The notes beneath the pieces are model-generated. The model searched no databases. It was not told where the DNA came from and worked only from the letters and a program-made list of their open reading frames with translations. Position numbers and translations under genes: made by a program. From a virus, in IMG/VR virus record IMGVR_UViG_3300018017_000002, positions 1-51,437 of that record: a stretch of 51,437 nucleotides of DNA; one strand, given 5' to 3'. Position 1 is the stretch's first letter. Each line of letters starts with the position of its first letter. Below, piece by piece: positions 1 through 30,800 of this stretch.

Positions 1-123
1 ATTCTCGCATACAAATCTTTCCTGAATAGATTCTTATCAACCATTTCTCTTATATTGCGATTAGTTGCACACACAAACCTACATGAAATCTCTTTTTCAT
101 CTGCTGCACCGACAGGACGAATG
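1..123. repeat. terminal overlap identical to 51315..51437 (circular closure of the assembly)
   Basis: Direct comparison of the first 123 nt with the last 123 nt shows identity; an ORF reads through the join. Confidence 0.95.
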
Positions 124-5374: not shown

Positions 5375-5435
5375 GAGGATTTCTTTTGAAATCCTCATCA
5401 GGCATGGTTAAACCATGCGACGGGCCGAAGCCCGT
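5375..5435 (-). terminator. three consecutive hairpins at the left edge of GC island 1
   Basis: GAGGATTTC-TTTT-GAAATCCTC (5375-5396), GCATGG-TTAAA-CCATGC (5402-5418), ACGGGC-CGAA-GCCCGT (5420-5435). They sit directly after the stop of the Gly-X repeat gene. Confidence 0.5.
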
Positions 5436-5441
5436 TTCGGA

Positions 5442-5747
5442 TTAAGAGCCGTAGCCGTCGCCGGAGCCGTCGCCGTCGCCGTAGCCGTAGCCGTAGCCGT
5501 AGCCGTAGCCGGAGCCGGAGCCGGAGCCGTCGCCGTAGCCGTAGCCGTCGCCGTCGCCGGAGCCGGAGCCGTAGCCGTCGCCGTCGCCGTAGCCGTAGCC
5601 GTAGCCGTGGCCGTAGCCGTAGCCGTAGCCGTTGCCGGAGCCGTAGCCGGAGCCGCGGCCGTAGCCGTAGCCGGAGCCGTGGCCGGAGCCGGAGCCGACA
5701 TGCTGTGAATCCTCAAAGTTCACAGCCGCACTGGATGGTGTTACCAT
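5442..5747 (-). CDS. (Gly-X)n low-complexity protein, Gly/Tyr/Ser/Asp-rich (101 aa)
   Basis: In this frame every repeat codon ends in C (GGC, TAC, TCC, GAC, CAC, AAC, CGC). The ATG at 5747 overlaps the TAA of the upstream gene (ATGGTAA). The other two repeat-spanning frames look like shadows. Confidence 0.6.
   Translation of the reverse strand: MVTPSSAAVNFEDSQHVGSGSGHGSGYGYGRGSGYGSGNGYGYGYGHGYGYGYGDGDGYGSGSGDGDGYGYGDGSGSGSGYGYGYGYGYGDGDGSGDGYGS
5448..5699. repeat. imperfect tandem hexanucleotide repeat (GCCGTA/GCCGGA/GCCGTC)n
   Basis: Read directly; about 40 units with variation confined to two positions per unit. Confidence 0.9.
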
Positions 5748-6190
5748 TTGGATTGATTGACGGTTATGGTGTGGACGACTGTCAACCAGTCGAATTCCAC
5801 CACTCCGTCACATTTGTCCAGCACGGTGGACTTGGTTGCGCCATTGACCAGCTCTGCCAATCCGTTTTTGGTGCCCCATTGACGGATGCATGATGCGTTG
5901 TGCAGTTTGCAGTCGTTGCCGGTGCGCTCAAATCGGCCCACATAAACCCAGCCGCGCTGGAGCACTACTATTTTTATGTCTCCAGTGTGCTCGACGCCTT
6001 TCACTGAGTCCTTGCGGACATATTTGACGCCGTTGATTTCCACCTCATTGATGTCTGTCTTGTCTATCATGTTGTTTTCTTTCTTTTGCTGCCATAAACG
6101 GCAGAATCCGCAGCCATGTTTTGCAAGGCTGCGTTGTTCTGCTGATGGTTTTACATGCAGATTGCGATTTTGTGCAGTCTGGGCGGGCAT
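5741..6190 (-). CDS. hypothetical protein (149 aa; alternative ATG at 6070 gives 109 aa)
   Basis: GC-rich ORF coupled to the Gly-X gene. The internal start MIDKTDINEV... is preceded by a purine-rich stretch. Confidence 0.6.
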   Translation of the reverse strand: MPAQTAQNRNLHVKPSAEQRSLAKHGCGFCRLWQQKKENNMIDKTDINEVEINGVKYVRKDSVKGVEHTGDIKIVVLQRGWVYVGRFERTGNDCKLHNASCIRQWGTKNGLAELVNGATKSTVLDKCDGVVEFDWLTVVHTITVNQSKW

Positions 6191-6284
6191 TCAAAACACT
6201 CAGCGGGAGCGGCGACAATGCGACCAATTTCACGACTTATGGCATCCGTCTCCGGTGTTTTTGATTCATTCATAAATTAAAGAG

Positions 6285-6372
6285 TGAGCGCGGCAGGATT
6301 TGAACCTGCATGACCGCATAAGTCAGGGGCTTCTATGCTCACCCTTGCGTCTTTTCATTCCGCCACGCGCTC
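6285..6372 (-). tRNA. class-II (Leu-like) tRNA-like element with an aberrant anticodon arm and D-loop
   Basis: Acceptor GAGCGCG/CGCGCTC; D-arm TGGCGGAATGAAAAGACGC (Leu-like but lacks GG); T-arm GCAGG-TTCAAAT-CCTGC; long variable arm GAC-TTATGCG-GTC. The anticodon region AGGGT-GAGCATAGAAG-CCCCT gives only 4 bp and an 11-13 nt loop. No CCA is encoded. Confidence 0.5.
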
Positions 6373-6382
6373 ATAAATAAGT

Positions 6383-6501
6383 TGGCCTAAGCAGGACTTG
6401 AACCTGCATGATAAACATGTCTGTTTCTCTCGGCTGTTAACTAGCCTAGCGTCTCTGCCTATCGTTGCCCACTGGGGTCGTACAGTTTTCGCCATTAGAC
6501 C
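6383..6501 (-). tRNA. second tRNA-like element: good class-II 3' half, irregular 5' half (119 nt if the acceptor is GGTCTAA/TTAGGCC)
   Basis: T-arm GCAGG-TTCAAGT-CCTGC, acceptor 3' strand TTAGGCC, variable hairpin AAACA-GACA-TGTTT, anticodon-like hairpin GGCT-AGTTAAC-AGCC. About 30 extra nt lie between the D region and the anticodon arm. Confidence 0.3.
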
Positions 6502-6620
6502 AACCAAAATTACACCACCCGGTCTTACATAAGCTTGCCGAGTTATTCGACCTGCCTTTGTTAATGTTATGTCGTTGACTTTCATGTTGCCCACTAACAC
6601 TGTAAGCTGGCTGGGTGGTG

Positions 6621-6785
6621 TTAAATTAGCTGAGGTTTATTTGTTCTGTTATAAAAGTTTTTACATTTTTTGCACCAACGAAAGCCATGTAACATTGGTT
6701 CAAGCACACAATGAATTGGTCGAGTAACTGTCATATTATGCCTACCACATAAGCAAAGGAATCTACCTGAATAGTTAATGTGCAT
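6621..6785 (-). CDS. hypothetical small Cys-rich protein (54 aa)
   Basis: MHINYSGRFLCLCGRHNMTVTRPIHCVLEPMLHGFRWCKKCKNF...; below the track cutoff, in the AT-rich spacer inside island 1. Confidence 0.3.
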   Translation of the reverse strand: MHINYSGRFLCLCGRHNMTVTRPIHCVLEPMLHGFRWCKKCKNFYNRTNKPQLI

Positions 6786-6853
6786 TACAAATAGCATACT
6801 ACTCCTTCAAAACTCCACATGGTTTCCATGTCAAGCCGTGGTCAAGGGAGTGT

Positions 6854-7747
6854 TCATTTTTCCTCCTTTCCCTCAGCCTTGTGCTTCTTCTTGAGCGCCA
6901 GTTTGACTGCCCGCGTCTCGCACGGCTTCATGGCGTCACGAATCCGCTTGGACAGTGATGGGAACATGTTGACCAGAAACTCCCGGCCACCATCGCAGTC
7001 CTGAACCTTCTTGGCCTCGTTGCCATCGTAGAAGTTCTTGAGGCACTGTGCCAGTATGCGGCTGGCCTTCTCCTGCCCGCCGCTGTTATGGGACTGCTCC
7101 ATGTATTTGACATAGGCCCGAGCCTGTGTGGACATGTTCTCCAATGAGGATATTTGATTGGCGAACGCCCTTGCCTTCTCCTGCTCCCCGTGGTGGAACA
7201 TGGCCAGCGGCCCGACCACATAGCCCTTTCGCCGTGTCTGCCCCACAACACAGTCGATTACAGCCTCGATGTCCTTCCCCCACAGCTCATGGATGAGCAT
7301 GGAATTGGTCGTGGAGAGCCTTCTGGCTCCGCCCGAAGGATAGACCAGCATGGCTATGCAACGGCACGCAGCCGCCGTCAGAACGCCATTCTTGATGCCG
7401 TGAAGCTGCATCTGCTGTCCGGTCTGCCGGAATCGCCCACGGTCAATCGTGTCCATCGAATTCAGCTCGATGCCGTTCTTGTTCTCCTGCACCGGAATGT
7501 CGTATGTGACTAGCGACTCGATTGACTTGCCGCTGAACACGACGGCCCATAGCCGGTGCTGTCCGTCGCAGAGATTGCCGTCGGTGTCGAAGGCTATTCC
7601 CTGATGATTCAACACCCAGCGCCCGTTTCGCATGTCGGCGGCATACGCCTGAACGGTGTTCTCCGACACCTTGCGGTTGCGCGGGTTGTGCTTCTCCAGA
7701 ACGTCAATGGCCCATTCGGGAGTTATTGTCTCAACTTTTACTCGCAT
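6854..7747 (-). CDS. ParB/Srx-fold (ParB-like nuclease domain) protein
   Basis: 297 aa; ...NHQGIAFDTDGNLCDGQHRLWAVV... matches the DGQHR box of ParB N-terminal domains. GC-rich. Confidence 0.7.
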   Translation of the reverse strand: MRVKVETITPEWAIDVLEKHNPRNRKVSENTVQAYAADMRNGRWVLNHQGIAFDTDGNLCDGQHRLWAVVFSGKSIESLVTYDIPVQENKNGIELNSMDTIDRGRFRQTGQQMQLHGIKNGVLTAAACRCIAMLVYPSGGARRLSTTNSMLIHELWGKDIEAVIDCVVGQTRRKGYVVGPLAMFHHGEQEKARAFANQISSLENMSTQARAYVKYMEQSHNSGGQEKASRILAQCLKNFYDGNEAKKVQDCDGGREFLVNMFPSLSKRIRDAMKPCETRAVKLALKKKHKAEGKEEK

Positions 7748-7897
7748 TTGTCAGTCCTTTCTTTTGAATGACGGTCGGGTTTGATGCGATAGCGCCTTTT
7801 TGTTTCATTCTCATTCATAATTATTTTATTTGTTGTTCAATATTTAGAAACTAATTGCCGCCCTCAGTTTATACAAAGAGCGGACTTAGTTACTAAC

Positions 7898-8586: not shown

Positions 8587-8790
8587 TTATTCATAAGATT
8601 CTAAGAATTTTCTTTGTTGTTCAATTTCTTGTGGAGTTGAAGGTTGGTATGAACCTAAGTCAAGTGAGCCTCTAGATTTACATTGCTTACACTTTGCCTC
8701 ACAGTAAGCATCTGTTAAGTTAGAAGTATCTTTTGGTTCAGTTCCAACTTGTTCATGACCACATTCTTGACAAGTTCTTATCCAAATCAT
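8587..8790 (-). CDS. zinc-ribbon protein (67 aa; an upstream ATG at 8847 is also possible)
   Basis: CQEC...CKQC pair. The longer start at 8847 lies inside the -12 element of promoter P5, so the internal ATG at 8790 is preferred. Confidence 0.5.
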   Translation of the reverse strand: MIWIRTCQECGHEQVGTEPKDTSNLTDAYCEAKCKQCKSRGSLDLGSYQPSTPQEIEQQRKFLESYE

Positions 8791-8842
8791 ATTGGTTTGT
8801 TGTTCTATTTGTTGTTCTATTGTAATCAGGCAAGGACAGTAT

Positions 8843-8858
8843 AGCATTTATCATGCCA
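8843..8858 (-). promoter_or_regulatory. sigma54-type -24/-12 promoter P5
   Basis: Minus strand reads TGGCAT-GATAA-ATGCT followed by ATA; intergenic, pointing into 8587..8790. Confidence 0.65.
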
Positions 8859-8907
8859 CACAAAGATTAGATACTAAATGGATGTTAGAAAGTATATTAG
8901 TCAATGA

Positions 8908-9300
8908 CTAGAAAAAAATTTTCTCCAAAAGAATAACTCCAACACAAGCAACTGTTCCTTTTGGAGCTAGCATACGAATATTCTTATTACGATTGTGCCA
9001 AAAGGCTTTAATATTTTCGGCATTAATAATATTAAAGTCTTCTGCATCAGCAATGTATCTAATTCTCACAGCAGAGATAAGTTGAGCTTTCCAAACTTCA
9101 TGTAAAGCTTCAAACTGAAAAGCAAATGCATGCTCTTTTGTGGAAAAAGCCAATAGTTTAGTATTAGCTAATTTTGGTAAGGTTAATTCGTTTGGTATGT
9201 AATCAACGGTAAAAGCACGATGTTCTGGATTATCGCTAAGACCAAAATTAGCACTCCTTAGTGTGCCATTGTTATTCATTACTACTTTATATCCAATCAT
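8908..9300 (-). CDS. hypothetical protein (130 aa)
   Basis: Track ORF 8908..9402 trimmed to the ATG at 9300 (MIGYKVVMNNNG...) to remove the overlap with 9314..9523. Confidence 0.55.
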   Translation of the reverse strand: MIGYKVVMNNNGTLRSANFGLSDNPEHRAFTVDYIPNELTLPKLANTKLLAFSTKEHAFAFQFEALHEVWKAQLISAVRIRYIADAEDFNIINAENIKAFWHNRNKNIRMLAPKGTVACVGVILLEKIFF

Positions 9301-9313
9301 ATTGTTGTTCTTT

Positions 9314-9523
9314 CTAGTTATTCTTTCCACGGTGTAAATCACGTTTAGACGGAGCCTTATTACTAACAGCTTGTCCACCTTCTTGTATAACTTTGCCAAC
9401 AAGATAATAAGATGGAATGTTCCTAGTTACCTTTTCAGGTTTGGCTTTCCAAGGATGTTTGACATGGAAAGTGTGTTTAACTGTTCCTATTGCTTTTATT
9501 GCTAGTGTGTTGGGTGATGCCAT
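9314..9523 (-). CDS. hypothetical basic protein (69 aa), directly downstream of the tmRNA
   Basis: Track ORF with ATG start, Lys/His-rich. Confidence 0.45.
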   Translation of the reverse strand: MASPNTLAIKAIGTVKHTFHVKHPWKAKPEKVTRNIPSYYLVGKVIQEGGQAVSNKAPSKRDLHRGKNN

Positions 9524-9550
9524 AGTTTTATTTTGGTTAACTAGTTAAAT

Positions 9551-9844
9551 TGGTGGAGCAGACGGGAATTGAACCCGTGTCCAATAATTATTTCTCACTA
9601 ATGAATTACAAGTTTATACTAACGGGGCGACTGATTTCAGTCACCATCCACCATTGGTCAGTTAAACTGTGACCAAACCAGCATCCACATAGCCGTAATG
9701 TGCAAGCACGGCATCAGCTTGTGCAACAGACATTGCGTAGTCTTGGTTAGCATTTGTTTTGCCTAGAGAGTTTTAAGTGGCCAACTAGACATCCACTACT
9801 TGCATTAGTTTTGATTTAATTACTGTCGAAACCATTACTGCCCC
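9551..9844 (-). ncRNA. ssrA: tmRNA (transfer-messenger RNA), 294 nt
   Basis: Minus strand: 5' GGGGCAGTAATGGTTTCGACAG...3' GGACACGGGTTCAATTCCCGTCTGCTCCACCA. The 7-bp acceptor stem has G3:U70, the T-arm is ACGGG-TTCAATT-CCCGT, CCA is encoded, and there is an internal tag ORF. Confidence 0.9.
9662..9763 (-). other. tmRNA tag reading frame: (A)GKTNANQDYAMSVAQADAVLAHYGYVDAGLVTV, then TAA
   Basis: Resume codon GGC follows a CTCTAG/pseudoknot-like region. The GKTN start resembles known GKTN-type tags. 33 codons, then TAA. Confidence 0.6.
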
Positions 9845-9860
9845 GTTATTAAAATTGTTT

Positions 9861-9922
9861 CCATACTAACATACTGCCTGCACAAAGTGTTTAATCCACT
9901 TGGGGCTAGAGGGTTAGTATGG
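9861..9922 (-). other. 10-bp perfect-stem hairpin in the tmRNA leader
   Basis: CCATACTAAC (9861-9870) pairs with GTTAGTATGG (9913-9922), about 17 nt upstream of the tmRNA 5' end. Confidence 0.5.
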
Positions 9923-10055
9923 AATATGTTTTGATACAGTTACATTGTCTGCATCTTTTACAAATTAGTCCTGCCATCATATACTAGCCTTGTGCATCTT
10001 ATAGTTGCTGATACACTAAGGGCCGACGTATGATTCTACATTGACATATTCTTAT

Positions 10056-10071
10056 AGCAACTTCTATGCCA
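10056..10071 (-). promoter_or_regulatory. sigma54-type -24/-12 promoter P4 (upstream of the tmRNA)
   Basis: Minus strand reads TGGCAT-AGAAG-TTGCT followed by ATA; about 200 nt upstream of the tmRNA 5' end. Confidence 0.7.
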
Positions 10072-10143
10072 TTGTATATCATCACTAATTCAACCAAGAT
10101 TTTAGCTCTTGGATTGGCTTTGAAATTTAGGTTGGTGAGGGTT

Positions 10144-10164
10144 GGAAGCTATGCACTAGAATAA
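10144..10164 (-). terminator. hairpin after 10188..10616
   Basis: CACTAGA-ATAAGAG-TCTAGTG; no U-run follows. Confidence 0.3.
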
Positions 10165-10187
10165 GAGTCTAGTGGATAGCATGTTAG

Positions 10188-10616
10188 TTATAACTTAAAC
10201 ATGGAACGGATTAGGTCACATTGCCACTTTCTTTCAGCAGCAACAGCATCAGCAACAGCAGCAACAGCATAAGCAGCAACAGCATAAGCAGCAACATTAG
10301 CAGCATAAGCAGCAACATTAGCAGCATTAGCAACAGCATAAGCATAAGCATAAGCATAAGCAGCAGCATTAGCAGCATTTCTACTATTAAAGTTGTTAAG
10401 ATGTTTAACATGGTCAGCAAACTGTTTTGCTAAGACAGCAAAAAGCTGTTTATCACAATATTCAACATTAAGTAAAAACCATAGCATCCATGATGTGTTG
10501 TTGCATGTATTCCATGCTTTACGAAATGAACCACAAGATTTAATAAAGGCCATTGCTTCTTTGCAAGGGTTGAATGTCTTGAGTTCTTTGACAGATTGAC
10601 ATTTTATTGTTTGCAT
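10188..10616 (-). CDS. hypothetical protein with a C-terminal Ala/Tyr/Asn/Val repeat region
   Basis: The track start at 10625 is TTG; the first ATG is at 10616 (MQTIKCQ...). Repeat: ...NAANAAAYAYAYAYAVANAANVAAYAANVAAYAVAAYAVAAVADAVAAERKW... Confidence 0.55.
   Translation of the reverse strand: MQTIKCQSVKELKTFNPCKEAMAFIKSCGSFRKAWNTCNNTSWMLWFLLNVEYCDKQLFAVLAKQFADHVKHLNNFNSRNAANAAAYAYAYAYAVANAANVAAYAANVAAYAVAAYAVAAVADAVAAERKWQCDLIRSMFKL
10236..10379. repeat. imperfect tandem tri/hexanucleotide repeat (GCAGCA/ACAGCA/TAAGCA/TTAGCA)n
   Basis: Read directly; it encodes the Ala/Tyr repeats on the minus strand. Confidence 0.85.
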
Positions 10617-10952
10617 AGCTGCCAACCCACACTTATTTACAGTCCAAGAGAGTCTGAAGACTTACCTTCAGTTTGGTCTCTTGACTAGCTTTGCCAGATA
10701 CGTCTTGCGTCTCACAGGCATTGCTTTATGGCCTAACAATCTTTCGATTCTTAGTTAGGTTAGAATCATAAACATACACGGATATGTTCTAAATGGTGCA
10801 ATCTTAATGCAGTTCTTATAGGCGATACCACTGCTTTCAGCTTGTCTTTCTAGCTTTTAAGGCTAGTGCCCGAAGCTATCAGATTGCACCAGTTAAAACA
10901 CATTCTGGACATAGAATCTAAATTGACAGGATAGACATTGTGTTTGATTGGA

Positions 10953-11546
10953 TTACTTGTGACTTGCAAGTGCCGTTTGAAGCAATTCAACAGCGTGCTG
11001 TTGAGCTTTCAGTTCCTCACGACTGAATTTACCAACATTATCCAGCATGAAGTCCATTCGGGCTTGTGCAGCAGACAAGCCGAATGTATCGCACAGTTTG
11101 AACTCATTCGGTTGCGGATTATACACTGATACCATTTTGTCAGTCTTGCTACGCACTAACTTGTCACCCTTGCCAATGCGGGTCATCAAGATGCCATGGC
11201 GAGTAGTCACTTTAGCATCATTGGCGATAGCCGTGTTAGCTATGACAATAGCCTGATTCCGCCAGAATGATTCGACAGCTTCCTTGCACTTGTTGAATAT
11301 GTCATCTGGCAGTTTCGTTGGCTTGTTTTGCTCGTCAAACTTGGCAATGCCAAGTAAAGAGCGAACATCATCAATCACACACAGTAGCAGGCTAACCTTG
11401 CCTTTGGTGCTACTGAATTGTGCGCCATTGTCGGACTTGCGTTTAGCATTGACTTTTACACGTTCGACATAGTCAATGTCAGACGGTGAACTGATAGCTG
11501 CTTTGTTAGACGGTGGCTGTTGTTCCAATGTTTTCGATTCGTTCAT
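10953..11546 (-). CDS. hypothetical protein, first gene of the leftward arm
   Basis: The track start at 11561 is TTG; the first ATG is at 11546 (MNESKTLEQ...). Confidence 0.6.
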   Translation of the reverse strand: MNESKTLEQQPPSNKAAISSPSDIDYVERVKVNAKRKSDNGAQFSSTKGKVSLLLCVIDDVRSLLGIAKFDEQNKPTKLPDDIFNKCKEAVESFWRNQAIVIANTAIANDAKVTTRHGILMTRIGKGDKLVRSKTDKMVSVYNPQPNEFKLCDTFGLSAAQARMDFMLDNVGKFSREELKAQQHAVELLQTALASHK

Positions 11547-11581
11547 TGTTTGTTTGCCCAAAACTTCCTTAGTGGTTCAAT

Positions 11582-21994: not shown

Positions 21995-22378
21995 ATGCCA
22001 CTTCGAGTAACAAATGCAGTAGAGAAGAATACATCTTGTGACCCTATAGTGCCAATAGTTGTGGCTGACAGTAAAGCTGTGACTGTATTGCCAGACATTA
22101 GTACATCAAAAGGCGAATGGCTAGGACGTTATATTCAGAATGTAGGAGCTAATGATTGCTATTATGCAATAGGTCATGACTGTGACCAAACTAATTTCAA
22201 TGGTATCTTATCTAAGCCTGCTTCTACTAATTCTGATTCATTTGGTTCTGGACAACAATTTGATGCATCTAACACAGGTCAGAAAATTTCAGTATTTTCT
22301 CGTGGTGGAACAACTATTGCTGTTACATCTATACGTCGAAATGATAATGCTCAAGGACAAGGCAACATACTGAAATAA
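21995..22378 (+). CDS. hypothetical protein (127 aa)
   Basis: Track ORF with ATG start. Confidence 0.55.
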   Translation: MPLRVTNAVEKNTSCDPIVPIVVADSKAVTVLPDISTSKGEWLGRYIQNVGANDCYYAIGHDCDQTNFNGILSKPASTNSDSFGSGQQFDASNTGQKISVFSRGGTTIAVTSIRRNDNAQGQGNILK

Positions 22379-23598
22379 TGAAAAGATTATTTGTAGTCTT
22401 ATTGGTTGGATGTACATTATCTGTATATGGTATTGGTGGATTAGTTAGTCCGACTATAAGTGCTAATGGTGGCGGGATTCCGTCCTCGGTTCAGTTCTCC
22501 GCGCTGGCGACGAATGCGATGAATGGTGTTCCTGGTGGCAATATCGTTACGAACAATCCCTATGCCGGTTTGTTCCTGATGGCGAACGCATTGACCAACC
22601 TGTATTATCCGGGGATTGTGTTCGTTTCCACCAATGGGAATGATACTAATGGTGGTGCTGGTTATTTGACCAATGCCTTTTTGACAGTTACCGGGGCTTG
22701 GACGCACATGGGCAACGGCTACGCCTATCATGTTGGGCCGGGCATGTTTAAGGTTTATACAAACGGAGTTTTCACCCATTGGATACAGGCACCCGCAAAC
22801 ATGGTTCTGGATGGAGAGGGAGCAAACACTGTTCTTTGGGCACCTTATGACCCCAATGCTGCCACCGGAATTGCGGTCACGACGAATCAAACTTTTCAAA
22901 ATCTTACGTGCAGTAATTTGGTGTTCTTCACTCCACTTGCTGCTGCTCTTTCGGGGACGTTAACTTCTGCCACAAACGTAAGCTGGCTGAATCTTTCGAT
23001 TCAAAACTCAAATGTAATTGACACGTGGTATGCCGATGGTGGCGATGCCAGTGGAGGGGGAGACGGATATCATTTTTGCATGGTGTCAAACTGTACAGTT
23101 GTCGGGTACTTTGATTTGGCTATGGGATTCTACAACTCCACCTTTGCATACGATAACATCTTGTTAGCTGCTACAAATAACGCTATAGCATTCGGTGGAA
23201 ACACTGACCCAATTTTCCTCTATGGCGGGAACTTCACTTTTATCGGCGGGACTTATACGCAGCAGCATGCGTCTGGTGGTTCGAGTGGCTACACTTCGAC
23301 GATTCAAGATGACGAAACCGGAATGGATACAAACACATTCATCGGCACAATTCAATGGTACATTCCCGGCACACTGGTAACGAACATGAGCGGAGGGACA
23401 ACTCACAGTGCCGGGGGAGTTTTTCCAGTCAATAGTTTTAGTGGAAATTTTTCTGGCAACGGCTCCGGGCTGACGAACGTCTCGTCGGCGTCTATTTCGG
23501 TTGTGACCAACTCCGCGCCGACGAATGCTGTCACTCCGCTCTTTTGGATTGGAATTACAAACGGCACATCGGTCTATAAAGTGCCGCTCTACCGATGA
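22378..23598 (+). CDS. lipoprotein-signal, beta-helix-like (pectate-lyase-like) protein; candidate tailspike or envelope-acting enzyme
   Basis: MKRLFVVLLVGC (lipobox LVGC); ...VLDGEGANTVLWAPYD...TFQNLTCSNLVF...; C-terminal ...GNFSGNGSGLTNVS... fibre-like motif. Composition switches from AT-rich to GC-rich at about nt 22465 within the ORF. Confidence 0.55.
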   Translation: MKRLFVVLLVGCTLSVYGIGGLVSPTISANGGGIPSSVQFSALATNAMNGVPGGNIVTNNPYAGLFLMANALTNLYYPGIVFVSTNGNDTNGGAGYLTNAFLTVTGAWTHMGNGYAYHVGPGMFKVYTNGVFTHWIQAPANMVLDGEGANTVLWAPYDPNAATGIAVTTNQTFQNLTCSNLVFFTPLAAALSGTLTSATNVSWLNLSIQNSNVIDTWYADGGDASGGGDGYHFCMVSNCTVVGYFDLAMGFYNSTFAYDNILLAATNNAIAFGGNTDPIFLYGGNFTFIGGTYTQQHASGGSSGYTSTIQDDETGMDTNTFIGTIQWYIPGTLVTNMSGGTTHSAGGVFPVNSFSGNFSGNGSGLTNVSSASISVVTNSAPTNAVTPLFWIGITNGTSVYKVPLYR

Positions 23599-24275
23599 AA
23601 GTCTGGCTCCTCATTTTGTTTTTGGTTGCACGTACTGCAACCGCTCAACAGGAGGTTGCAGTCCGGCAGGATACGCTGGCGCACTTCGTTGCAGACACGA
23701 TTTCAAACAACATCACGACGCTCACTCAGACCGTAACGCTGAACGTGACGAACACGGTGACGGTCAACAGCACCAACACCGTTTTGCAGACCAACATCGT
23801 GACGGTGAACCTGACCAACACGACGCTGCTCACCAATGCCGTAACGGTCTATTCGACCAACGCAACAACGACGCTGGCCACAAACTTCTACTCGGTGACG
23901 AACATCACCTACACCACGAACCTGACACTAACGACGAACATTTTCAACGTCACAAACACCGTGCTGCAAACGAACGTCATCAATGGCGGGGTGGCAACAT
24001 CCGGCTGGCCGACGCAGTGGCCGCTGTCGGCCATCACGAACGCAGGGACAGCGGCGGGAACGGCCACAAGTGCGTATGACGCTTCCGGTACTGCCACAAC
24101 AGCCGCGCAGCAGGCAACGAACGGAATCACCTACACGCTGCTCAAAGGCTGGCTTGGGTTCACGCCGGCGACGAACAATCCAAATGCGTGGACAGGAACA
24201 ATAACCAATCTTTACACATCATCACTGTCTAATCATATCCAAGTGTCATCTGGTGTTATCACAAACAAATTATGA
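23595..24275 (+). CDS. signal-peptide protein with Thr/Asn/Val-rich repeats dense in N-x-T
   Basis: MKVWLLILFLVARTATA-QQ; ...NITTLTQTVTLNVTNTVTVNSTNTVLQTNIVTVNLTNTTLLTN...; ATGA overlap with the upstream gene. Confidence 0.55.
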   Translation: MKVWLLILFLVARTATAQQEVAVRQDTLAHFVADTISNNITTLTQTVTLNVTNTVTVNSTNTVLQTNIVTVNLTNTTLLTNAVTVYSTNATTTLATNFYSVTNITYTTNLTLTTNIFNVTNTVLQTNVINGGVATSGWPTQWPLSAITNAGTAAGTATSAYDASGTATTAAQQATNGITYTLLKGWLGFTPATNNPNAWTGTITNLYTSSLSNHIQVSSGVITNKL

Positions 24276-24679
24276 ACCGCCGCGACAAAATAGGTCTGTG
24301 GACTTGTCTCGCGCTGCTCATCGCGTCGGCGATTGTGTTCATGGTCTGCACGGCGAGCGGCCAGACCTTGCCACCGATTCCGCAGGCTACATCCGTCAAC
24401 AAGACGAACCGGACAGTCGTGCATGAGACGAACGGGAGCACGGTCATAACCAGCAACGGTCGCTCGGTCACGAACTGGCCCGCGCCGGTGCCCACGGTGC
24501 AGTCATTTGAAGTGGACGTTACGGTAAAGGGGATTTTCACTGTCACGAACGTTCCGTATCCGTTTTACGTCCGTGTATATTCAAACGATTTGCAATGGTC
24601 AAGCAGCCCGCTGTTTCCGAAAACGAACACGATTAAAATGGGCACGCTGACAACCAGCATGACCTACACGAACGCATGA
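24272..24679 (+). CDS. membrane-anchored/secreted hypothetical protein (135 aa)
   Basis: N-terminal hydrophobic segment LWTCLALLIASAIVFMVC; ATGA overlap. Confidence 0.5.
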   Translation: MNRRDKIGLWTCLALLIASAIVFMVCTASGQTLPPIPQATSVNKTNRTVVHETNGSTVITSNGRSVTNWPAPVPTVQSFEVDVTVKGIFTVTNVPYPFYVRVYSNDLQWSSSPLFPKTNTIKMGTLTTSMTYTNA

Positions 24680-24687
24680 AAGGGTGA

Positions 24688-24924
24688 ATGGACAAGATGG
24701 AAACACTATCTATTACACTAATGGTAGGCGGAGTAGTGCTTGTCGGCACGGCAATAGGAGTGCCAGACCTTGGCTGGATTAGTGCGGCGGCTGTTGCTGT
24801 CATTTGGCTAGACCAAAAGTTCTCCCGAATAGACAAAAAGATAGACCGCTTGCCTTGTGTTCGCGGGAAGCATTGCGGTTTTGGATTGGAAGACCGCGAC
24901 AAAGAAGAATCTTCAACGATATGA
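24688..24924 (+). CDS. holin-like protein (two transmembrane segments, charged C-terminus)
   Basis: LSITLMVGGVVLVGTAIGV and LGWISAAAVAVIWL followed by a Lys/Arg/Asp/Glu-rich tail; immediately upstream of the putative endolysin. Confidence 0.5.
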   Translation: MDKMETLSITLMVGGVVLVGTAIGVPDLGWISAAAVAVIWLDQKFSRIDKKIDRLPCVRGKHCGFGLEDRDKEESSTI

Positions 24925-25385
24925 ACTTCCCCGACGACCTTCTACTCGGCGACGTGCTGCTCTACAACTTGCCGCATGATTTGCCGGATGATGTGATTGA
25001 CGTTTTCACCGACAGCGATGTTGCCCATGCTGAAATTTATTGGGGCAACGGCTTGTCTATTGCTGCCCGCGCTCAGGGCGTTAATGTATATGACTTCCGA
25101 TTGGACGGCCTGATGTATGTGCGCCGCCCTGTTGCCCCGTTTAATCGTTCGCTGGCCGAAGCATGGTTTAACAACGGCATTCGCGGATTGCCCTACGGGT
25201 GGGAAGGACTGCTCACGTTCGCCGGAATTGACCTGCCAAGCAAAGGTCTGATTTGCTCCGTAACTGTTGCGCTGTTGCTTAAGGTCGGTCAATGCCCATG
25301 CTTTGCAGATGATTACCCAATCCACAAAATCTCACCACGGGACTTGAAACTGCCCCGCGAGCTAACCACAATATACACAGCATGA
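24921..25385 (+). CDS. permuted papain-like (NlpC/P60 or YiiX-type) cysteine peptidase; candidate endolysin
   Basis: The ATG at 24921 overlaps the holin stop (ATGA). His-before-Cys order: ...SDVAHAEIYWGNG... then ...GLICSVTVALLL... Confidence 0.45.
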   Translation: MNFPDDLLLGDVLLYNLPHDLPDDVIDVFTDSDVAHAEIYWGNGLSIAARAQGVNVYDFRLDGLMYVRRPVAPFNRSLAEAWFNNGIRGLPYGWEGLLTFAGIDLPSKGLICSVTVALLLKVGQCPCFADDYPIHKISPRDLKLPRELTTIYTA

Positions 25386-25570
25386 AAACACTCATCATCC
25401 TCATCAAACGAAGGCTATGCGGCCTGATTTTCAGCCATAGGCCATTGCATCCTACCGATAGTGGGTGGGTTGTTGGAAGTAAAATGGTTGACCGATTCTG
25501 TAATAGATGTGGTCACATTGTGAGAATGCCAATGGCGGAAGACCCTCGCTATGACAAAACTACCCGCTGA
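25382..25570 (+). CDS. hypothetical protein (62 aa)
   Basis: Track ORF; ATGA overlap; CNRCGH motif. Confidence 0.4.
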   Translation: MKTLIILIKRRLCGLIFSHRPLHPTDSGWVVGSKMVDRFCNRCGHIVRMPMAEDPRYDKTTR

Positions 25571-25600
25571 AACTGAGCGGGTTCAACCCGTAGGAAAATT

Positions 25601-25960
25601 ATGGACACAAACTCAATACCAATCCTGACTCAAATCGGTAACGCAATGCCATCGGCCATTCAACTGCACTGGCCGGCCATCGCCATCCTCATCACTTACA
25701 TTACGCACGTCAACTGGACTACCGTGCAGAATTATTGTGATGCGCGGACTGGCGGCGTAATCCCGTGGCTGTTCCGGCTACTCGTCGGAACGCCAGCAAC
25801 TCAACCCGCCGCGCCTGCGGCACAAATGCGTCCTGTCACCAGTCCCGAAGGCACAGTCAAACCAATTATACAACCTGCTGCGATTGTACCACAACCAGCG
25901 ACGACTGACCCTTTTGGTCATGTGACAAATGACCCTTTGGGGTATCATACAATAACATAA
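25601..25960 (+). CDS. membrane protein with a Pro/Ala/Gln-rich C-terminal part (possible spanin-like component)
   Basis: Hydrophobic segment WPAIAILITYITHV; extended ...TQPAAPAAQMRPVTSPEGTVKPIIQPAAIVPQPATT... Confidence 0.4.
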   Translation: MDTNSIPILTQIGNAMPSAIQLHWPAIAILITYITHVNWTTVQNYCDARTGGVIPWLFRLLVGTPATQPAAPAAQMRPVTSPEGTVKPIIQPAAIVPQPATTDPFGHVTNDPLGYHTIT

Positions 25961-25962
25961 AA

Positions 25963-26127
25963 ATGAAGCGACTTATGACAAAAGAAATGTCCGACAAAAT
26001 TAGGGCACAAAGGCTCGCGATGCCCCGTGTAACTCTTGCCGAAGCACAGGCGCAAGCAAAACGTGTGATGGCTGGAAGAATGCGCCACAACCAACAACCA
26101 AACCAACAACACCAAAAAACACCATGA
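25963..26127 (+). CDS. hypothetical small basic protein (54 aa)
   Basis: Below the track cutoff; MKRLMTKEMSDKIRAQRLAMPRV...; its TGA overlaps the next ATG (ATGA). Confidence 0.35.
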   Translation: MKRLMTKEMSDKIRAQRLAMPRVTLAEAQAQAKRVMAGRMRHNQQPNQQHQKTP

Positions 26128-27598: not shown

Positions 27599-28984
27599 AT
27601 GCCACAACCTTCATCTATAGATTTCATTGCTCCATTCGACCCAACTGGTTATACATCAATAACTGGCGCCCAACTACTTCAATTAGTGTCTGGATTATAT
27701 CCTAATACTGATACTGGACTAACTTTAATTACTGCTGATATAGCTGGAATTCCACAAGTACCTGATGCTTCCACTACAACCAAGTGGGAAAACTATATAT
27801 GGATTAGACAGTCAGCTACCTATGTAACTGCTTATGTATGGAATCCTAATGGAGCCACTGATGCTACATATCTTAATTGGGTAACTATAGCTTCTGCTTC
27901 TATTGGAGCAGGAACTATCCAAGGCTACATGATAGCTCCTAATACTATTCCAGCATCAGCCATAATTAGTATATCAGCTACCCAAATATCTGGTTCTGTT
28001 GTTCCAGCATGGCTAGCACAGCTTAATATATCTGGAACAGCATATTCAACTAATGGATTAATGAATAATAATTCACCTGTATTTGGTGTACTTAATGGTG
28101 CTGGCTCTACAGTTGGAATACCTGTATTCGGTACTCAAGTAATACCTTCTACTGCATACGGATTACAAACTATTGGAGGAAGCACAGTAGCATTAGCTAG
28201 CCCTATTGTTGATAATAGTATTACTACTAGACAGCTACTATCGAATGGCGGCACAGCTACCGCAGCAGCAACTATTGCAGCAGTCGACCCAAAAACTAAT
28301 ATAATTGTACCAACTACATCTATTCCTGGAATACCTAGCAATACTTCTGTTCCACAAGCTTCTGCTATAGGTGATATTCTTGGAATAGGATATAATGCGA
28401 ATGCAGCACAGTTAGGTTTTGTTACTATTAGCAGAGCATTGTTAAATTTAGATGACCCTGCTAGTGTAGCAGGACAAGTTCAGATTCCAATTGTAAAAGC
28501 AGCAGCTACTGCATATTCGTATGCTAATTTTGGCAACTTAACATTGCAAAAAATAAACGCACAATATTCAACAGCTACCGATTGTACAGGTTCAGTCAGC
28601 ATGACTGATAGTGTAGTTGGCATGACCACAAAAGGTACATCACGTTCTAGTGGAGTGGCTGTTACAATCACTCCTTTAGCTGGAACTTCTGGCTCTAAAG
28701 TAATTGTTACTGCTCATGTTCCTGTATATTTGAATATAAGTGGCGGGGGAGCCTTATGGTTAGGCTTATATGATTCTGTTTCTGCTTTATTTATAGCTTT
28801 TGCTAGATTTGGAGGAACAAATATTTCCAATGTTATTACTCTAAAAGGAACAACTGCTGCACTAACAGTGAATACTGCAAGAACATTTACTATTTATATT
28901 GGAACCACATCAGGGACAGCAGCTAATGCACAAACTAACTATTATTCTGAAGGTGCATTTATAACAGCAGAAGAAGTTCTATAA
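27599..28984 (+). CDS. tail-fibre-like protein (461 aa)
   Basis: Ala/Thr/Ser/Gly/Ile-rich with repeated I-x-x-x-I periodicity (...TIQGYMIAPNTIPASAIISISATQISGS...); position in the tail block. Confidence 0.5.
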   Translation: MPQPSSIDFIAPFDPTGYTSITGAQLLQLVSGLYPNTDTGLTLITADIAGIPQVPDASTTTKWENYIWIRQSATYVTAYVWNPNGATDATYLNWVTIASASIGAGTIQGYMIAPNTIPASAIISISATQISGSVVPAWLAQLNISGTAYSTNGLMNNNSPVFGVLNGAGSTVGIPVFGTQVIPSTAYGLQTIGGSTVALASPIVDNSITTRQLLSNGGTATAAATIAAVDPKTNIIVPTTSIPGIPSNTSVPQASAIGDILGIGYNANAAQLGFVTISRALLNLDDPASVAGQVQIPIVKAAATAYSYANFGNLTLQKINAQYSTATDCTGSVSMTDSVVGMTTKGTSRSSGVAVTITPLAGTSGSKVIVTAHVPVYLNISGGGALWLGLYDSVSALFIAFARFGGTNISNVITLKGTTAALTVNTARTFTIYIGTTSGTAANAQTNYYSEGAFITAEEVL

Positions 28985-28985
28985 T

Positions 28986-30800
28986 ATGGCTGAGTACAAA
29001 CAAAATTCATTCTCTGGTGGATTTAATCTTCTACTTGATGATACTAGACTTCCTGTATCATTTAAGTACAAAGAGGGAGATACTCCTTATGATATTACAT
29101 ACAATCAATATCGACTTGGAATTAATACACGCACACGCTTCGATGTATGTTCTTCTATAAATTCATCAACTGTAGATTTATTAGCACCGGCAGGAATAAA
29201 ACAAGCCCTAATAGCTTTTGGTAATTATATTATCTTATTCGTATCTGGCACAGCATGGTATCAGTTAAATGGTACACAAGGATGGATTCAGATAAATGGA
29301 TTCTCGATGGATAAAGTTGCCCCAAGATATTGGACATGTGCAGTTCCACTAACAACAACAAATTATGGCCGCCTTGCAAATCCTGTAAGTGGAACAGTTG
29401 CCCTTCCAAATGCAAATGGTGGAATTAATCAAGTTCAAACTAATATAGTAGCTGGTGAATTTGGAAACACACCAGGACTGTTAGTTCAAGACGGAATTAA
29501 TCAGTCACAGTTTATTTATGTTGATAACAACAATAATGTACAGTGTCGAACAACGCAAACGTATGATGAATGGTCATATCCACTGGACAATACAACATTA
29601 AAGCTAACAGGGCCTGACAATAGAGAGTATGTTCCTGTTGGAACCTTTATGGAATGGTACAATGGAATACTATTTATAGTTGACACCAATTTTGAATATA
29701 TTTATCGTTCAGTGTCTGGCAGGCCATTAGATTTTGTTGTTAATGTTGATATGTATGGACAAAAAGGTGGCGACGCTTCTACAACATCATATTCTGTTGG
29801 TGTATCAGGTATTACTGCTATGAGAGCTATGCCAGGAAATAGTTTATTTGTAGCTGCGGGTGGTGCATCAACATTTTTAATTACACTTAATCAGACACCG
29901 AATGCTCCTACTATATTTGGAGAATACACTTTTAACAGACAAGTATTGTTTAATTCTAATTGTATAACTGAAAGAGGCATTATTGATATATCTGGCTCAC
30001 CTAACTCATCTAATGCCGGTGATACAGTATTTATTGATGCTAATGGTTTGCGTTCATTTAATGCAATTTTATCATTACAGAATGAAGGTCGTAATAGTAT
30101 TTTTTCAGCTACCATTTCTGGATTATTTGCTGGAATAATAAATTCAACTACTATAACTGCATCTACAGGTTCTGGTTGGGCATCTGCTATAATGTTTGAT
30201 AACTATGCAATATTTTCTGTAAACACAGTATTTGGATACGTATTAGTAGTGTATGATACTATTAACAATGTGTATCAAAGTATAGATACACTGCAAGTTG
30301 GTAATCATGCTGTTAAACAATTTGCGGCTATTACTATAACAACATTATCTTTATTTGCAATAACTGATGATGATAGAGTTGTTAAACTTTACTCATCTCC
30401 TACTTTTGATTCTTCTACTATTCGATTAGGCGCAGTTAGTGCACAAGACCCTAAAAAAGAATTGAAAGTTATAAATGTTCGTGCTATATTTTCTAATATA
30501 ACTACTAATAGTACATTTACATGTAAATTGTTTGTAAACAATAGACTAGAACAAACTGTAACAGAAAAGCTAGAATATGTCAATCCTGTTACTCCTTATA
30601 ATGGTGTTCCTATTGGAACTGATATTGATACACAAACTAACAATACATTATTTTCATTTCCAAACTCGTCACAAGGATGGAAAGCTTTTGTAGTATTAAC
30701 ATGGACAGGAAGTGCATCACTTACATCTACGTCAATCACTACTATAGATGAAACTCCAATGCAACCAATTCGTACTCAAGCTGTTATTCAGCAAACATAA
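28986..30800 (+). CDS. virion structural protein (604 aa), possibly a tail tube or nozzle component
   Basis: Size and position only. Confidence 0.5.
   Translation: MAEYKQNSFSGGFNLLLDDTRLPVSFKYKEGDTPYDITYNQYRLGINTRTRFDVCSSINSSTVDLLAPAGIKQALIAFGNYIILFVSGTAWYQLNGTQGWIQINGFSMDKVAPRYWTCAVPLTTTNYGRLANPVSGTVALPNANGGINQVQTNIVAGEFGNTPGLLVQDGINQSQFIYVDNNNNVQCRTTQTYDEWSYPLDNTTLKLTGPDNREYVPVGTFMEWYNGILFIVDTNFEYIYRSVSGRPLDFVVNVDMYGQKGGDASTTSYSVGVSGITAMRAMPGNSLFVAAGGASTFLITLNQTPNAPTIFGEYTFNRQVLFNSNCITERGIIDISGSPNSSNAGDTVFIDANGLRSFNAILSLQNEGRNSIFSATISGLFAGIINSTTITASTGSGWASAIMFDNYAIFSVNTVFGYVLVVYDTINNVYQSIDTLQVGNHAVKQFAAITITTLSLFAITDDDRVVKLYSSPTFDSSTIRLGAVSAQDPKKELKVINVRAIFSNITTNSTFTCKLFVNNRLEQTVTEKLEYVNPVTPYNGVPIGTDIDTQTNNTLFSFPNSSQGWKAFVVLTWTGSASLTSTSITTIDETPMQPIRTQAVIQQT

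What the first reader, a model, noticed from the sequence alone, without database searches (positions are those of the whole stretch)
9551..9844. Phage tmRNA with a long tag that does not end in LAA
The tRNA-like domain is convincing: GGGGCAG/CTGCTCC acceptor with G3:U70, GGTTTCGAC at the 5' end, T-arm ACGGG-TTCAATT-CCCGT and an encoded CCA. At 294 nt it is short, and the region 3' of the tag appears to hold only one obvious helix (GGTGACTG-AAAT-CAGTCGCC). The best tag frame starts with GGC (GKTN...) and reads GKTNANQDYAMSVAQADAVLAHYGYVDAGLVTV before TAA. An ancestral-looking ...DAVLA is followed by 12 more residues, so the C-terminus is LVTV rather than the protease-recognised LAA-type end. 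A phage tmRNA could rescue stalled ribosomes while changing the fate of the tagged proteins. No SmpB gene is recognisable in the window.
Basis: partly seen in the sequence, partly recalled or inferred. Interest (0 to 1): 0.75.

Follow-up and report, generated by a model that had tools for sequence, protein, structure and literature searches.

The report
Phage tmRNA with long conserved tag
A complete 51-kb phage genome carries a real but shortened ribosome-rescue RNA (tmRNA). It belongs to a previously undescribed phage-borne tmRNA family whose unusually long tag holds a strongly conserved 16-residue core, and this phage's copy has lost the usual Ala-Ala degradation end.

Summary
ARAGORN and Rfam RF00023 (112 bits, E=3e-43) both call a 294-nt one-piece tmRNA on the minus strand at 9551-9844. 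Its tag is ANQDYAMSVAQADAVLAHYGYVDAGLVTV. The window is a complete phage genome with a 123-nt terminal repeat. It has no SmpB and no integrase.

The idea of an ancestral "DAVLA" end with 12 added residues is wrong. I found about 17 distinct homologous tmRNAs in viral and metagenomic contigs (GC 0.34-0.59). All carry tags of 29-37 residues with an internal core, A[PM][ST][VL]A[EQ]ADA[IV]LAx[FY]G[YF]. In that core, codon positions 1 and 2 are nearly invariant and position 3 varies freely, so the peptide is translated and under selection.

Thirteen of the 17 tags end in a canonical Ala-Ala (LAA, MAA, VAA or AAA). The window's LVTV differs from its nearest relative (SVAA) at the last two residues by two point changes.

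Long phage tags that do not end in LAA already exist (mycobacteriophage Bxz1: ...AAALV). The tmRNA itself is therefore a known kind. The conserved long-tag family appears unreported: it has no match in GenBank phages or in the paper library. The function of the core, and the fate of proteins tagged with LVTV, remain untested.

The parts
9551..9844 (-). tmRNA gene (294 nt, one-piece, reduced form)
   Evidence: ARAGORN. Rfam RF00023 at 112.4 bits, E=3.4e-43. L045 carries an identical copy and L001 a copy about 98% identical.
9838..9844 (-). Acceptor stem, 5' strand GGGGCAG, including G3 of the G3:U70 alanine identity pair
   Evidence: Sequence. All 7 pairs hold in 5 of 5 sequences, 3 of them with compensatory changes.
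9551..9561 (-). Acceptor stem 3' strand CUGCUCC (9555-9561) plus the encoded ACCA end (9551-9554)
9798..9825 (-). Helix 2, 5' strand (tmRNA positions 20-47)
   Evidence: RNAalifold and pair counts show 15 of 22 pairs with changes on both sides.
9582..9613 (-). Helix 2, 3' strand (tmRNA positions 232-263)
9760..9797 (-). Pseudoknot PK1. Stem 1 is (A)GUGG/CCAC(U). Stem 2 is UGUCUAG/CUAGGCA.
   Evidence: 100% of cells are paired. The A-U pair in stem 2 is C-G in relatives. The extra pair A48:U69 covaries (A-U, C-G, G-C).
9662..9751 (-). Tag reading frame: resume codon GCU at 9751-9749, 29 codons, stop UAA at 9664-9662. It encodes ANQDYAMSVAQADAVLAHYGYVDAGLVTV.
   Evidence: ARAGORN. The same frame is conserved in homologues. 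Other frames give nothing tag-like.
9689..9736 (-). Conserved 16-codon core of the tag (AMSVAQADAVLAHYGY; family consensus APSVAEADAILAKFGY)
   Evidence: Across 16 tmRNAs, entropy by codon position is 0.35, 0.25 and 1.37. Invariant columns number 10, 11 and 0 of 16. Ser is encoded by both TCN and AGY codons.
9654..9676 (-). Helix 5: 7-bp stem UUGGUCA/UGACCAA with a 9-nt loop, CAGUUUAAC, that holds the stop codon
   Evidence: 3 of 7 pairs have compensatory changes.
9626..9645 (-). Single 8-bp hairpin GGUGACUG-AAAU-CAGUCGCC, standing where PK2-PK4 lie in standard tmRNAs
   Evidence: MFE fold. Relatives have a hairpin of different sequence at the same place. The Rfam alignment shows the PK2-PK4 region deleted.
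9562..9578 (-). T arm ACGGG-UUCAAUU-CCCGU
1..123 (.). Context: direct terminal repeat (identical to 51315-51437), showing that the window is a complete phage genome
   Evidence: 100% identical 123-nt repeat at both ends.

Best explanation
This is a functional phage-encoded one-piece tmRNA, a reduced 294-nt member of a phage-borne tmRNA family that carries a long tag.

Shown here:
- The RNA has every element needed for trans-translation: an alanine-identity acceptor stem (G3:U70), T arm, encoded CCA, helix 2, PK1, a resume codon 9 nt after PK1, and a stop codon in the loop of helix 5.
- It sits in the early/replication gene block of a complete phage genome that encodes no SmpB.
- Across the family, the tag peptide is under strong purifying selection.

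Inferred mechanism:
- During infection the RNA is processed and charged with Ala by the host AlaRS.
- It is delivered to stalled ribosomes by host SmpB and EF-Tu.
- It then appends (A)ANQDYAMSVAQADAVLAHYGYVDAGLVTV to the stalled nascent chains and releases the ribosome.
- By analogy with the SspB-binding part of the E. coli tag, the conserved 16-residue core is most likely a recognition element for a host or phage factor of adaptor type.
- In most family members the C-terminal [LMAV]AA supplies the protease (ClpXP-type) determinant.

In this phage lineage two point substitutions changed ...VAA-type to ...VTV. One of them improves a helix-5 base pair. The tag keeps its core and a small hydrophobic C-terminus but lacks the canonical Ala-Ala. 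Tagged chains are probably degraded more slowly or by a different route. This last step is not tested.
For: Identity: ARAGORN and Rfam at 112 bits.

Structure: 94.2% of cells are paired, against 34-47% in slid controls. 23 pairs carry compensatory changes, and 0 of 500 shuffles reach the observed values.

Phage context:
- 123-nt DTR
- ligase, helicase, Sak4-like protein, exonuclease, primase and PolA pieces
- a sister contig in IMG/VR
- no integrase or SmpB

Family: homologous tmRNAs in L041, L044, L047-49 and L051-L072.

Translation and selection of the tag: the codon-position entropies are 0.35, 0.25 and 1.37, no third position is invariant, and Ser uses both TCN and AGY codons. Pairwise pS exceeds pN.

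The stop codon lies in the helix-5 loop in relatives too.

The gene is kept essentially unchanged in three contigs (L045 identical; L001 about 98%, with an identical tag) while flanking ORFs vary or are partly deleted.
Against: - There are no expression or tagging data.
- No significant promoter was found upstream.
- The host is unknown, so compatibility with host SmpB and AlaRS is assumed.
- Syntenic relatives of this phage (helicase 47-68% identical) lack the tmRNA and its flanking ORFs. The gene is therefore a recent, dispensable acquisition.
- The window's tag is the most divergent in the family (M for P, Q for E, H for K/R/Q, loss of the Ala-Ala end). This could equally mean relaxed constraint.
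- The three contigs that carry this exact tag are near-identical and give no independent evidence of selection on LVTV.
Confidence: 0.7

Rival explanations
1. Recently captured passenger in decay. The tmRNA was acquired horizontally as part of a variable accessory cassette. In this lineage it is drifting, and the loss of the Ala-Ala end and the substitutions in the core are neutral or deleterious rather than functional.
For: Closest phage relatives lack the cassette. The window's tag is the most divergent of 17. The tmRNA is the shortest in the family and lacks PK2-PK4.
Against: All structural elements are intact, with compensatory changes relative to L044, L041 and L047. The frame is open and stops exactly in the helix-5 loop. 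The S->L and A->T codon changes in the tail are matched by changes that keep or improve helix-5 pairing. The gene is identical or about 98% identical in three contigs whose neighbouring ORFs differ.
Confidence: 0.12
2. Decoy or inhibitor. The RNA mainly titrates host SmpB or competes with the host tmRNA, as proposed for the TLD-only gene of mycobacteriophage DS6A. Tagging would be irrelevant.
For: The phage has no SmpB and must use the host's. TLD-only tmRNA-like genes do exist in viral contigs (PMC4131195).
Against: A decoy needs no reading frame. Here PK1, the resume context, the ORF and helix 5 are all kept, and the family's peptide is under strong purifying selection.
Confidence: 0.08
3. 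Non-degradative tagging. The LVTV end was selected so that rescued chains are marked by the conserved core but escape ClpXP-type proteolysis. This would change the fate of tagged proteins.
For: The C-terminus lacks Ala-Ala. Three of the four shortest family tmRNAs (294-386 nt) end non-canonically: LVTV, LLTA and LVIA. Bxz1 also ends in Val.
Against: The end is still small and hydrophobic. From established work on E. coli ssrA variants (tags ending AAV or ASV still destabilise GFP; own knowledge, not tested here), a terminal Val does not abolish degradation. There is no independent lineage with LVTV that could show selection.
Confidence: 0.2
4. Integration-related ssrA copy. The sequence is an attP-type fragment or an imprecise-excision remnant of a host tmRNA gene.
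For: tmRNA genes are common integration sites, and fragments occur in prophages (PMC9004378).
Against: The gene is full length and lies inside a DTR-bounded genome. No integrase is detectable. A scan of one genome for each of 185,579 bacterial and archaeal species with its 3' end found no similar bacterial tmRNA. The family is shared by unrelated viral contigs.
Confidence: 0.03

Closest known systems
Mycobacteriophage Bxz1 / cluster C tmRNA
   Same: A phage-encoded one-piece tmRNA with a long (25-aa), acidic, Ala-rich tag that ends in Val rather than LAA: ATDTDATVTDAEIEAFFAEEAAALV (ARAGORN on AY129337). Phage tmRNAs are listed in PMC4131195.
   Different: There is no detectable sequence similarity. 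Bxz1's tmRNA is 435 nt and lies in a tRNA array of a 156-kb myovirus. Its tag lacks the A-P-S-V-A-E-A-D-A-I-L-A-K-F-G-Y core; it has only a loose resemblance (TDAEIEAFFAEE), which I treat as a lead and not as homology.
Standard bacterial one-piece tmRNA (Rfam RF00023; E. coli SsrA, tag ANDENYALAA)
   Same: tRNA-like domain with G3:U70, helix 2, PK1, resume codon shortly after PK1, tag starting AN, and stop codon in the helix-5 loop.
   Different: It is 294 nt against about 360 nt, with PK2-PK4 replaced by one hairpin. The tag is about three times longer with a conserved internal module. There is no C-terminal Ala-Ala. The gene is carried by a phage without SmpB.
Host-like tmRNAs in phages (two-piece tmRNAs of Melnitz and pelagiphages, PMC9004378; huge-phage tmRNAs with SmpB, PMC7162821)
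   Same: A virus-encoded ribosome-rescue RNA. About 2.3% of sequenced phages had one (PMC9004378).
   Different: Those tmRNAs resemble the tmRNAs of host lineages. The other viral-contig tmRNAs I retrieved have short canonical tags such as ANDEVYALAA and ANNNELALAA. This family has its own long tag and occurs in contigs with GC from 0.34 to 0.59.
TLD-only tmRNA-like gene of mycobacteriophage DS6A
   Same: A phage gene derived from the tmRNA tRNA-like domain. Similar 82-nt genes were seen here in viral contigs.
   Different: The window's RNA keeps the whole mRNA-like domain and a selected reading frame.
Mycoplasma-type long tags ending in FA and degraded by Lon (own knowledge)
   Same: A long tag whose C-terminus is not LAA, which implies recognition by something other than the E. 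coli ClpX rule.
   Different: That is a bacterial, lineage-wide trait. No sequence similarity is evident, and this comparison was not tested here.

Membership tests
tmRNA (Rfam RF00023, standard one-piece) | Covariance-model score above the gathering threshold over the full model | tested here: met
   112.4 bits against 47, model positions 1-374, E=3.4e-43.
tmRNA (Rfam RF00023, standard one-piece) | tRNA-like domain: 7-bp acceptor stem with G3:U70, T arm, ACCA end, no anticodon arm | tested here: met
   Sequence. Acceptor and T arm are 100% paired, with compensatory changes.
tmRNA (Rfam RF00023, standard one-piece) | Long helix 2 joining the tRNA-like domain to the body, and pseudoknot PK1 just 5' of the resume codon | tested here: met
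   Helices 2-6. 15 of 22 H2 pairs have changes on both sides. Both PK1 stems are 100% paired.
tmRNA (Rfam RF00023, standard one-piece) | Tag ORF without a start codon, resuming a few nt after PK1 and ending at a stop codon in the helix-5 loop | tested here: met
   GCU lies 9 nt after PK1 and UAA lies in the 9-nt loop of a 7-bp helix. The frame shows a protein-coding substitution pattern.
tmRNA (Rfam RF00023, standard one-piece) | Pseudoknots PK2-PK4 between helix 5 and helix 2 (typical, not essential) | tested here: not met
   Only one 8-bp hairpin is present. Larger family members of 400-470 nt keep more structure.
tmRNA (Rfam RF00023, standard one-piece) | Alanylation, SmpB binding and trans-translation activity | not testable with these tools
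   No SmpB is encoded in the phage, so host factors would be required.
Canonical ssrA degron (ClpXP-type tag) | C-terminal Ala-Ala-COOH preceded by a hydrophobic residue ([LVMA]AA) | tested here: not met
   The tag ends GLVTV. Thirteen of the 17 distinct family tags do end in Ala-Ala (LAA, MAA, VAA or AAA).
Phage long-tag tmRNA family (defined here) | Tag of 29-37 aa with an internal core A[PM][ST][VL]A[EQ]ADA[IV]LAx[FY]G[YF] | tested here: met
   The window has AMSVAQADAVLAHYGY, and all 8 invariant columns are kept. The RNA aligns over PK1, the tag and the TLD with L044, L041 and L047.
Phage long-tag tmRNA family (defined here) | Carried by viral genomes, not by bacterial chromosomes | tested here: inconclusive
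   All members found are in IMG/VR or metagenome contigs. Some have a terminase or tRNA arrays next to the gene. The window is a complete phage genome. The protein-database hits are all metagenomic. Bacterial genomes were scanned only with the 3'-end pattern, not with the tag motif.
ssrA-derived attP fragment of an integrative element | A partial 3' tmRNA segment next to an integrase | tested here: not met
   The gene is full length. No integrase domain was found in any scanned ORF.
TLD-only phage tmRNA-like RNA (DS6A type) | The mRNA-like domain is absent | tested here: not met
   PK1, the tag ORF and helix 5 are present.

The most novel reading that the evidence does not exclude
The conserved 16-residue core turns the tmRNA tag into a phage-specific address label. 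Phages of many hosts would use trans-translation to attach a functional peptide, recognised by a dedicated host or phage factor, to stalled nascent chains. In this phage lineage the degradation end has been dropped, so the label acts without ClpXP-type proteolysis. That would give trans-translation a second, non-degradative output under viral control.
Probability: 0.25. Interest if true: 0.8.

Novelty: new variant of a known kind. Interest (0 to 1): 0.58.

Why it matters
Bacterial tmRNA tags are most often about 10 residues long (PMC11915505) and, from general knowledge, are conserved mainly at their ends. Here a tmRNA lineage spread among unrelated uncultivated phages (GC 0.34-0.59, contigs up to 182 kb) encodes a tag about three times longer. 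Its internal 16 residues are more conserved than the RNA around them. That points to a specific binding partner or activity for the tag during infection. No such partner or activity has been described for phage tmRNAs, whose role is still conjectural (PMC9004378, PMC7162821).

The window's copy is a natural variant that keeps the core but has lost the Ala-Ala end. This makes it a ready-made test of which part of the tag matters.

The question is directly testable with reporter fusions, pull-downs with the core peptide, and mass spectrometry.

Tried and rejected
- **GenBank phages.** BLAST of the tmRNA, of a large family member and of a family tag found no match. The helicase, a PolA piece and the 27599-30800 block also found nothing. 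The phage lineage and its host therefore remain unknown.
- **Bacterial genomes.** A scan with the T-arm/acceptor 3' end gave mostly Armatimonadota tRNA-Ala genes and two unrelated tmRNAs.
- **Strict tag-peptide pattern** (Q, V, Y only): it found only the sister contig. The relaxed pattern was needed.
- **Tag peptides against Pfam and PDB**, singly and as a profile: nothing significant. The ILAKFG[FY] matches to VapD and a P450 are short helix-turn coincidences.
- **Conserved neighbour genes** as candidate partners: no gene is shared by all loci, and none is recognisable as SmpB, an adaptor or a protease.
- **Search for the core motif elsewhere** in six-frame translations of the window and all loci: it occurs only in the tmRNA tags.
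- **Promoter scan** upstream of the gene: no more sites than in shuffled sequence.
- **Alternative resume frames:** no conventional tag.
- **GKTN start** (Bacillus-like): rejected because GGC is paired in PK1.
- **Literature search for the motif strings:** no paper.

Full report
**1. Observation**

ARAGORN reports a single tmRNA in the window. It lies at 9551-9844 on the minus strand, with tag ANQDYAMSVAQADAVLAHYGYVDAGLVTV*. The Rfam tmRNA model RF00023 matches the same interval end to end at 112.4 bits (gathering 47, E=3.4e-43).

Read on the minus strand, the RNA shows:
- the acceptor stem GGGGCAG/CUGCUCC with G3:U70
- GGUUUCGAC
- the T arm ACGGG-UUCAAUU-CCCGU
- an encoded ACCA end

The strand was not stated.

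**2. Context**

The first and last 123 nt of the window are identical, so the window is a complete genome of about 51.3 kb bounded by a terminal repeat.

- Minus-strand blocks at both ends encode an ATP-dependent ligase, a helicase, a Sak4-like annealing protein, an exonuclease, a primase and two PolA pieces.
- The plus-strand block at 13-41 kb is almost entirely unrecognisable. It has a weak SU10-adaptor match and a 2155-aa ORF.
- An IMG/VR contig of 52,144 bp is a close sister. Its helicase is 95% identical and its tmRNA about 98% identical with the same tag.
- More distant syntenic relatives (helicase 47-68% identical) cover the equivalent region. They lack the tmRNA and the ORFs that flank it. 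The gene therefore sits in a variable accessory cassette within the early/replication block.
- No SmpB is present, by tblastn or by Pfam scans of 38 ORFs of 100 aa or more plus 2 shorter ORFs. No integrase is present either.
- Nothing in 50,697 GenBank phage records resembles the tmRNA, the helicase or the polymerase.

**3. Anatomy**

Four distinct relatives were used: the window/L001 pair, L044, L041 and L047. On their alignment, a structure containing the acceptor stem, helix 2, both stems of PK1, helix 5 and the T arm has these properties:
- 94.2% of cells are paired, against 34-47% when the partners are slid.
- 23 of 52 pairs change on both sides.
- No shuffle out of 500 reaches the observed values.

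The resume codon GCU (window 9751-9749) lies 9 nt after PK1.

The stop codon UAA (9664-9662) lies in the 9-nt loop of a 7-bp helix 5. This is the canonical arrangement.

After helix 5 there is only one 8-bp hairpin before the 3' strand of helix 2. PK2-PK4 are missing and the RNA is 294 nt long. The other two frames contain nothing tag-like.

**4. Relatives and the tag**

Three scans recovered relatives.
- A metagenome scan with the 5' 20-mer found:
  - L044 (306 nt), with tag ANTNPVGELAMSVAQADAVLAKYGYLDAVSVAA.
  - L041 (332 nt), with tag ANTKPVINGEMAMTVAQADAVLAKFGYVEKTAELLTA.
  - L045, identical to the window.
- A PK1 pattern found L047-49 (386 nt), with tag ...MAPSVAEADAILAKFGFTEKGDVALVIA.
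- A degenerate pattern for the shared peptide then found 22 more loci in IMG/VR contigs of 6-182 kb with GC 0.34-0.59.
  - Most are confirmed as tmRNAs by ARAGORN or Rfam at 73-137 bits.
  - Example tags are ANSNEMLAPSLAEADAILAKYGYADSELLAA, ANALDMAPSLAEADAILARFGFVEEALAA, GKHQFAPTVAEADAILARFGYAEAGELAAA and ANNAVDMAPSVAEADAILAQFGYQEAAMAA.

The 17 distinct tags share a common layout:
- an AN-type start
- the core A[PM][ST][VL]A[EQ]ADA[IV]LAx[FY]G[YF]
- a short, mostly acidic linker
- a small hydrophobic end

In the 16 core codons of 16 tmRNAs, mean entropy by codon position is 0.35, 0.25 and 1.37. Ten and eleven of 16 first and second positions are invariant, and no third position is. Ser is encoded by both TCN and AGY codons. 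That is a protein-coding signature. The frame is translated, and it is the peptide, not the RNA, that is conserved.

The motif occurs nowhere else in the six-frame translations of the window or the loci.

**5.

'DAVLA' is the middle of the family core. It is not a relic C-terminus.
- Thirteen of the 17 tags end in a canonical Ala-Ala (LAA, MAA, VAA or AAA).
- The four exceptions are the window (LVTV), L041 (LLTA), L047-49 (LVIA) and the Bxz1-unrelated remainder is canonical. Among the four shortest tmRNAs (window, L044, L041, L047; 294-386 nt), only L044 (SVAA) keeps the Ala-Ala end.

Compared with L044 (GAU GCU GUU UCG GUC GCA GCU UAA), the window (GAU GCU GGU UUG GUC ACA GUU UAA) differs in the last two residues by two single-base changes, GCA->ACA and GCU->GUU.
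- The UCG->UUG change lies in the helix-5 stem and is matched by a change on the 3' strand.
- The GCA->ACA change also lies in the stem and turns a G-U pair into A-U.
- The tail is therefore under a double constraint, from both the RNA and the peptide.

So the window carries a derived loss of the Ala-Ala end. It is not an extension of an old tag.

**6. Mechanism**

Shown:
- an intact tmRNA architecture
- a translated and selected tag frame in the family
- no phage SmpB

Inferred from established knowledge of trans-translation:
- The RNA is charged by host AlaRS through G3:U70.
- It enters stalled ribosomes with host SmpB and EF-Tu.
- Translation resumes at GCU, so 29 encoded residues follow the charged Ala. 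The ribosome is released at UAA.

By analogy with the bipartite E. coli tag (SspB site plus ClpX site), the core is most likely a binding site and the end a protease determinant. With ...VTV the second function is probably weakened or redirected.

I put 0.7 on 'functional phage tmRNA of this family that tags nascent chains'. I put about 0.2-0.25 on the stronger idea that LVTV was selected to change the fate of tagged proteins.

Rival explanations are:
- drift of a recently captured passenger (0.12)
- an SmpB decoy (0.08), which the selected ORF argues against
- an attP-type remnant (0.03), which the full-length gene, the DTR genome and the absence of an integrase argue against

**7. Comparison with what is known**

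Phage tmRNAs are well known.
- Ten were listed in 2014, including a TLD-only form in DS6A (PMC4131195).
- 402 of 18,146 phage genomes had one in 2021 (PMC9004378).
- Huge phages carry tmRNA and SmpB (PMC7162821).

A long phage tag that does not end in LAA is also not new. ARAGORN on mycobacteriophage Bxz1 gives ATDTDATVTDAEIEAFFAEEAAALV.

Other viral-contig tmRNAs retrieved here have short host-like tags such as ANDEVYALAA and ANNNELALAA.

The new element appears to be the family itself: a tmRNA lineage spread over unrelated viral contigs whose long tag has a strongly conserved internal module.
- Neither the RNA nor the peptide matches any GenBank phage record.
- No paper in the library contains the motif strings.
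- ORFs overlapping the tag exist only in metagenomic sources of the protein database.
- I could not scan bacterial genomes for the motif, so a bacterial origin or reservoir is not excluded.

**8. Verdict**

The tmRNA is real. The phage context is real. The long tag is real and translated. The non-LAA end is real but derived, and it has precedent.

The specific interpretation of a read-through past an old end is refuted. The functional speculation is open.

The finding is a new variant of a known kind. Most of its interest lies in the conserved-tag family it led to, for which this LVTV copy is a natural dissection mutant.

Noticed in passing
window 6285-6372 (-); also L003:914-1001: A tRNA-like gene scores 36 bits on Rfam tRNA (gathering 29) but ARAGORN does not call it. 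It has a 13-nt anticodon loop and a long variable arm. It may be an intron-containing or non-canonical class II tRNA.
   Followed up: partly
window ~5400-7800: A GC-rich island (GC 0.45-0.50 against about 0.38 elsewhere) holds 12/18-nt tandem repeats. These encode a Gly/Tyr/Ser/Asp repeat ORF (5442-5747, minus strand). The island also holds a phrog_5931 ParB-like ORF (6854-7747, minus strand) and the tRNA-like gene. It looks like an inserted module.
   Followed up: no
window 10188-10625 (-): This ORF lies 340 nt upstream of the tmRNA. Its C-terminal half is an Ala/Tyr/Val repeat (NAAAYAYAYAYAVANAANVAAYAANVAAYAVAAYAVAAVADAVAA). It is only 75% identical in the sister contig, so its length varies.
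   Followed up: no
window 22001-26000: A second GC-rich stretch (0.47-0.52) lies inside the plus-strand block of unrecognisable genes.
   Followed up: no
window 9646-9653 (-); same place in L044, L041, L047, L055: A conserved single-stranded UGGUGGA(G/U)G lies just 5' of the last hairpin. It is complementary to the tmRNA's own 3' end (CUCCACCA) and contains an SD-like GGAGG in the relatives. No explanation was found.
   Followed up: no
L028:19-100, L034:1369-1451, L035:10-91, L036:7202-7283, L038:4027-4110: These viral contigs carry genes of about 82 nt that consist only of the tmRNA tRNA-like domain. For L034-L036, Rfam tmRNA scores 59-73 bits and joins the model's two ends. This is the type known from mycobacteriophage DS6A. 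In L038 the gene lies next to a ROOL RNA.
   Followed up: partly
L052:2599-3011, L070, L072:3320-3723: These family tmRNAs are interrupted right after GGGGUUCGAUUC in the T loop, by an intron or by an insertion at the classical ssrA target site. L072 scores only 38.7 bits. Pistol ribozymes lie 0.4-1.3 kb upstream (L052:2145-2212, L072:4882-4950).
   Followed up: partly
L005 and L008 (IMG/VR relatives of the window phage): These syntenic relatives have a different 4-7 kb segment where the window has ORFs 8587-11561 plus the tmRNA. This marks a hypervariable accessory slot between the replication and structural modules.
   Followed up: partly
L050:10060-10494 (Bxz1): The Bxz1 tag segment TVTDAEIEAFFAEEAAALV loosely resembles the family's SVAEADAILAKFGYAEEELQLAA. 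This may reflect distant kinship or convergence among phage tags.
   Followed up: no
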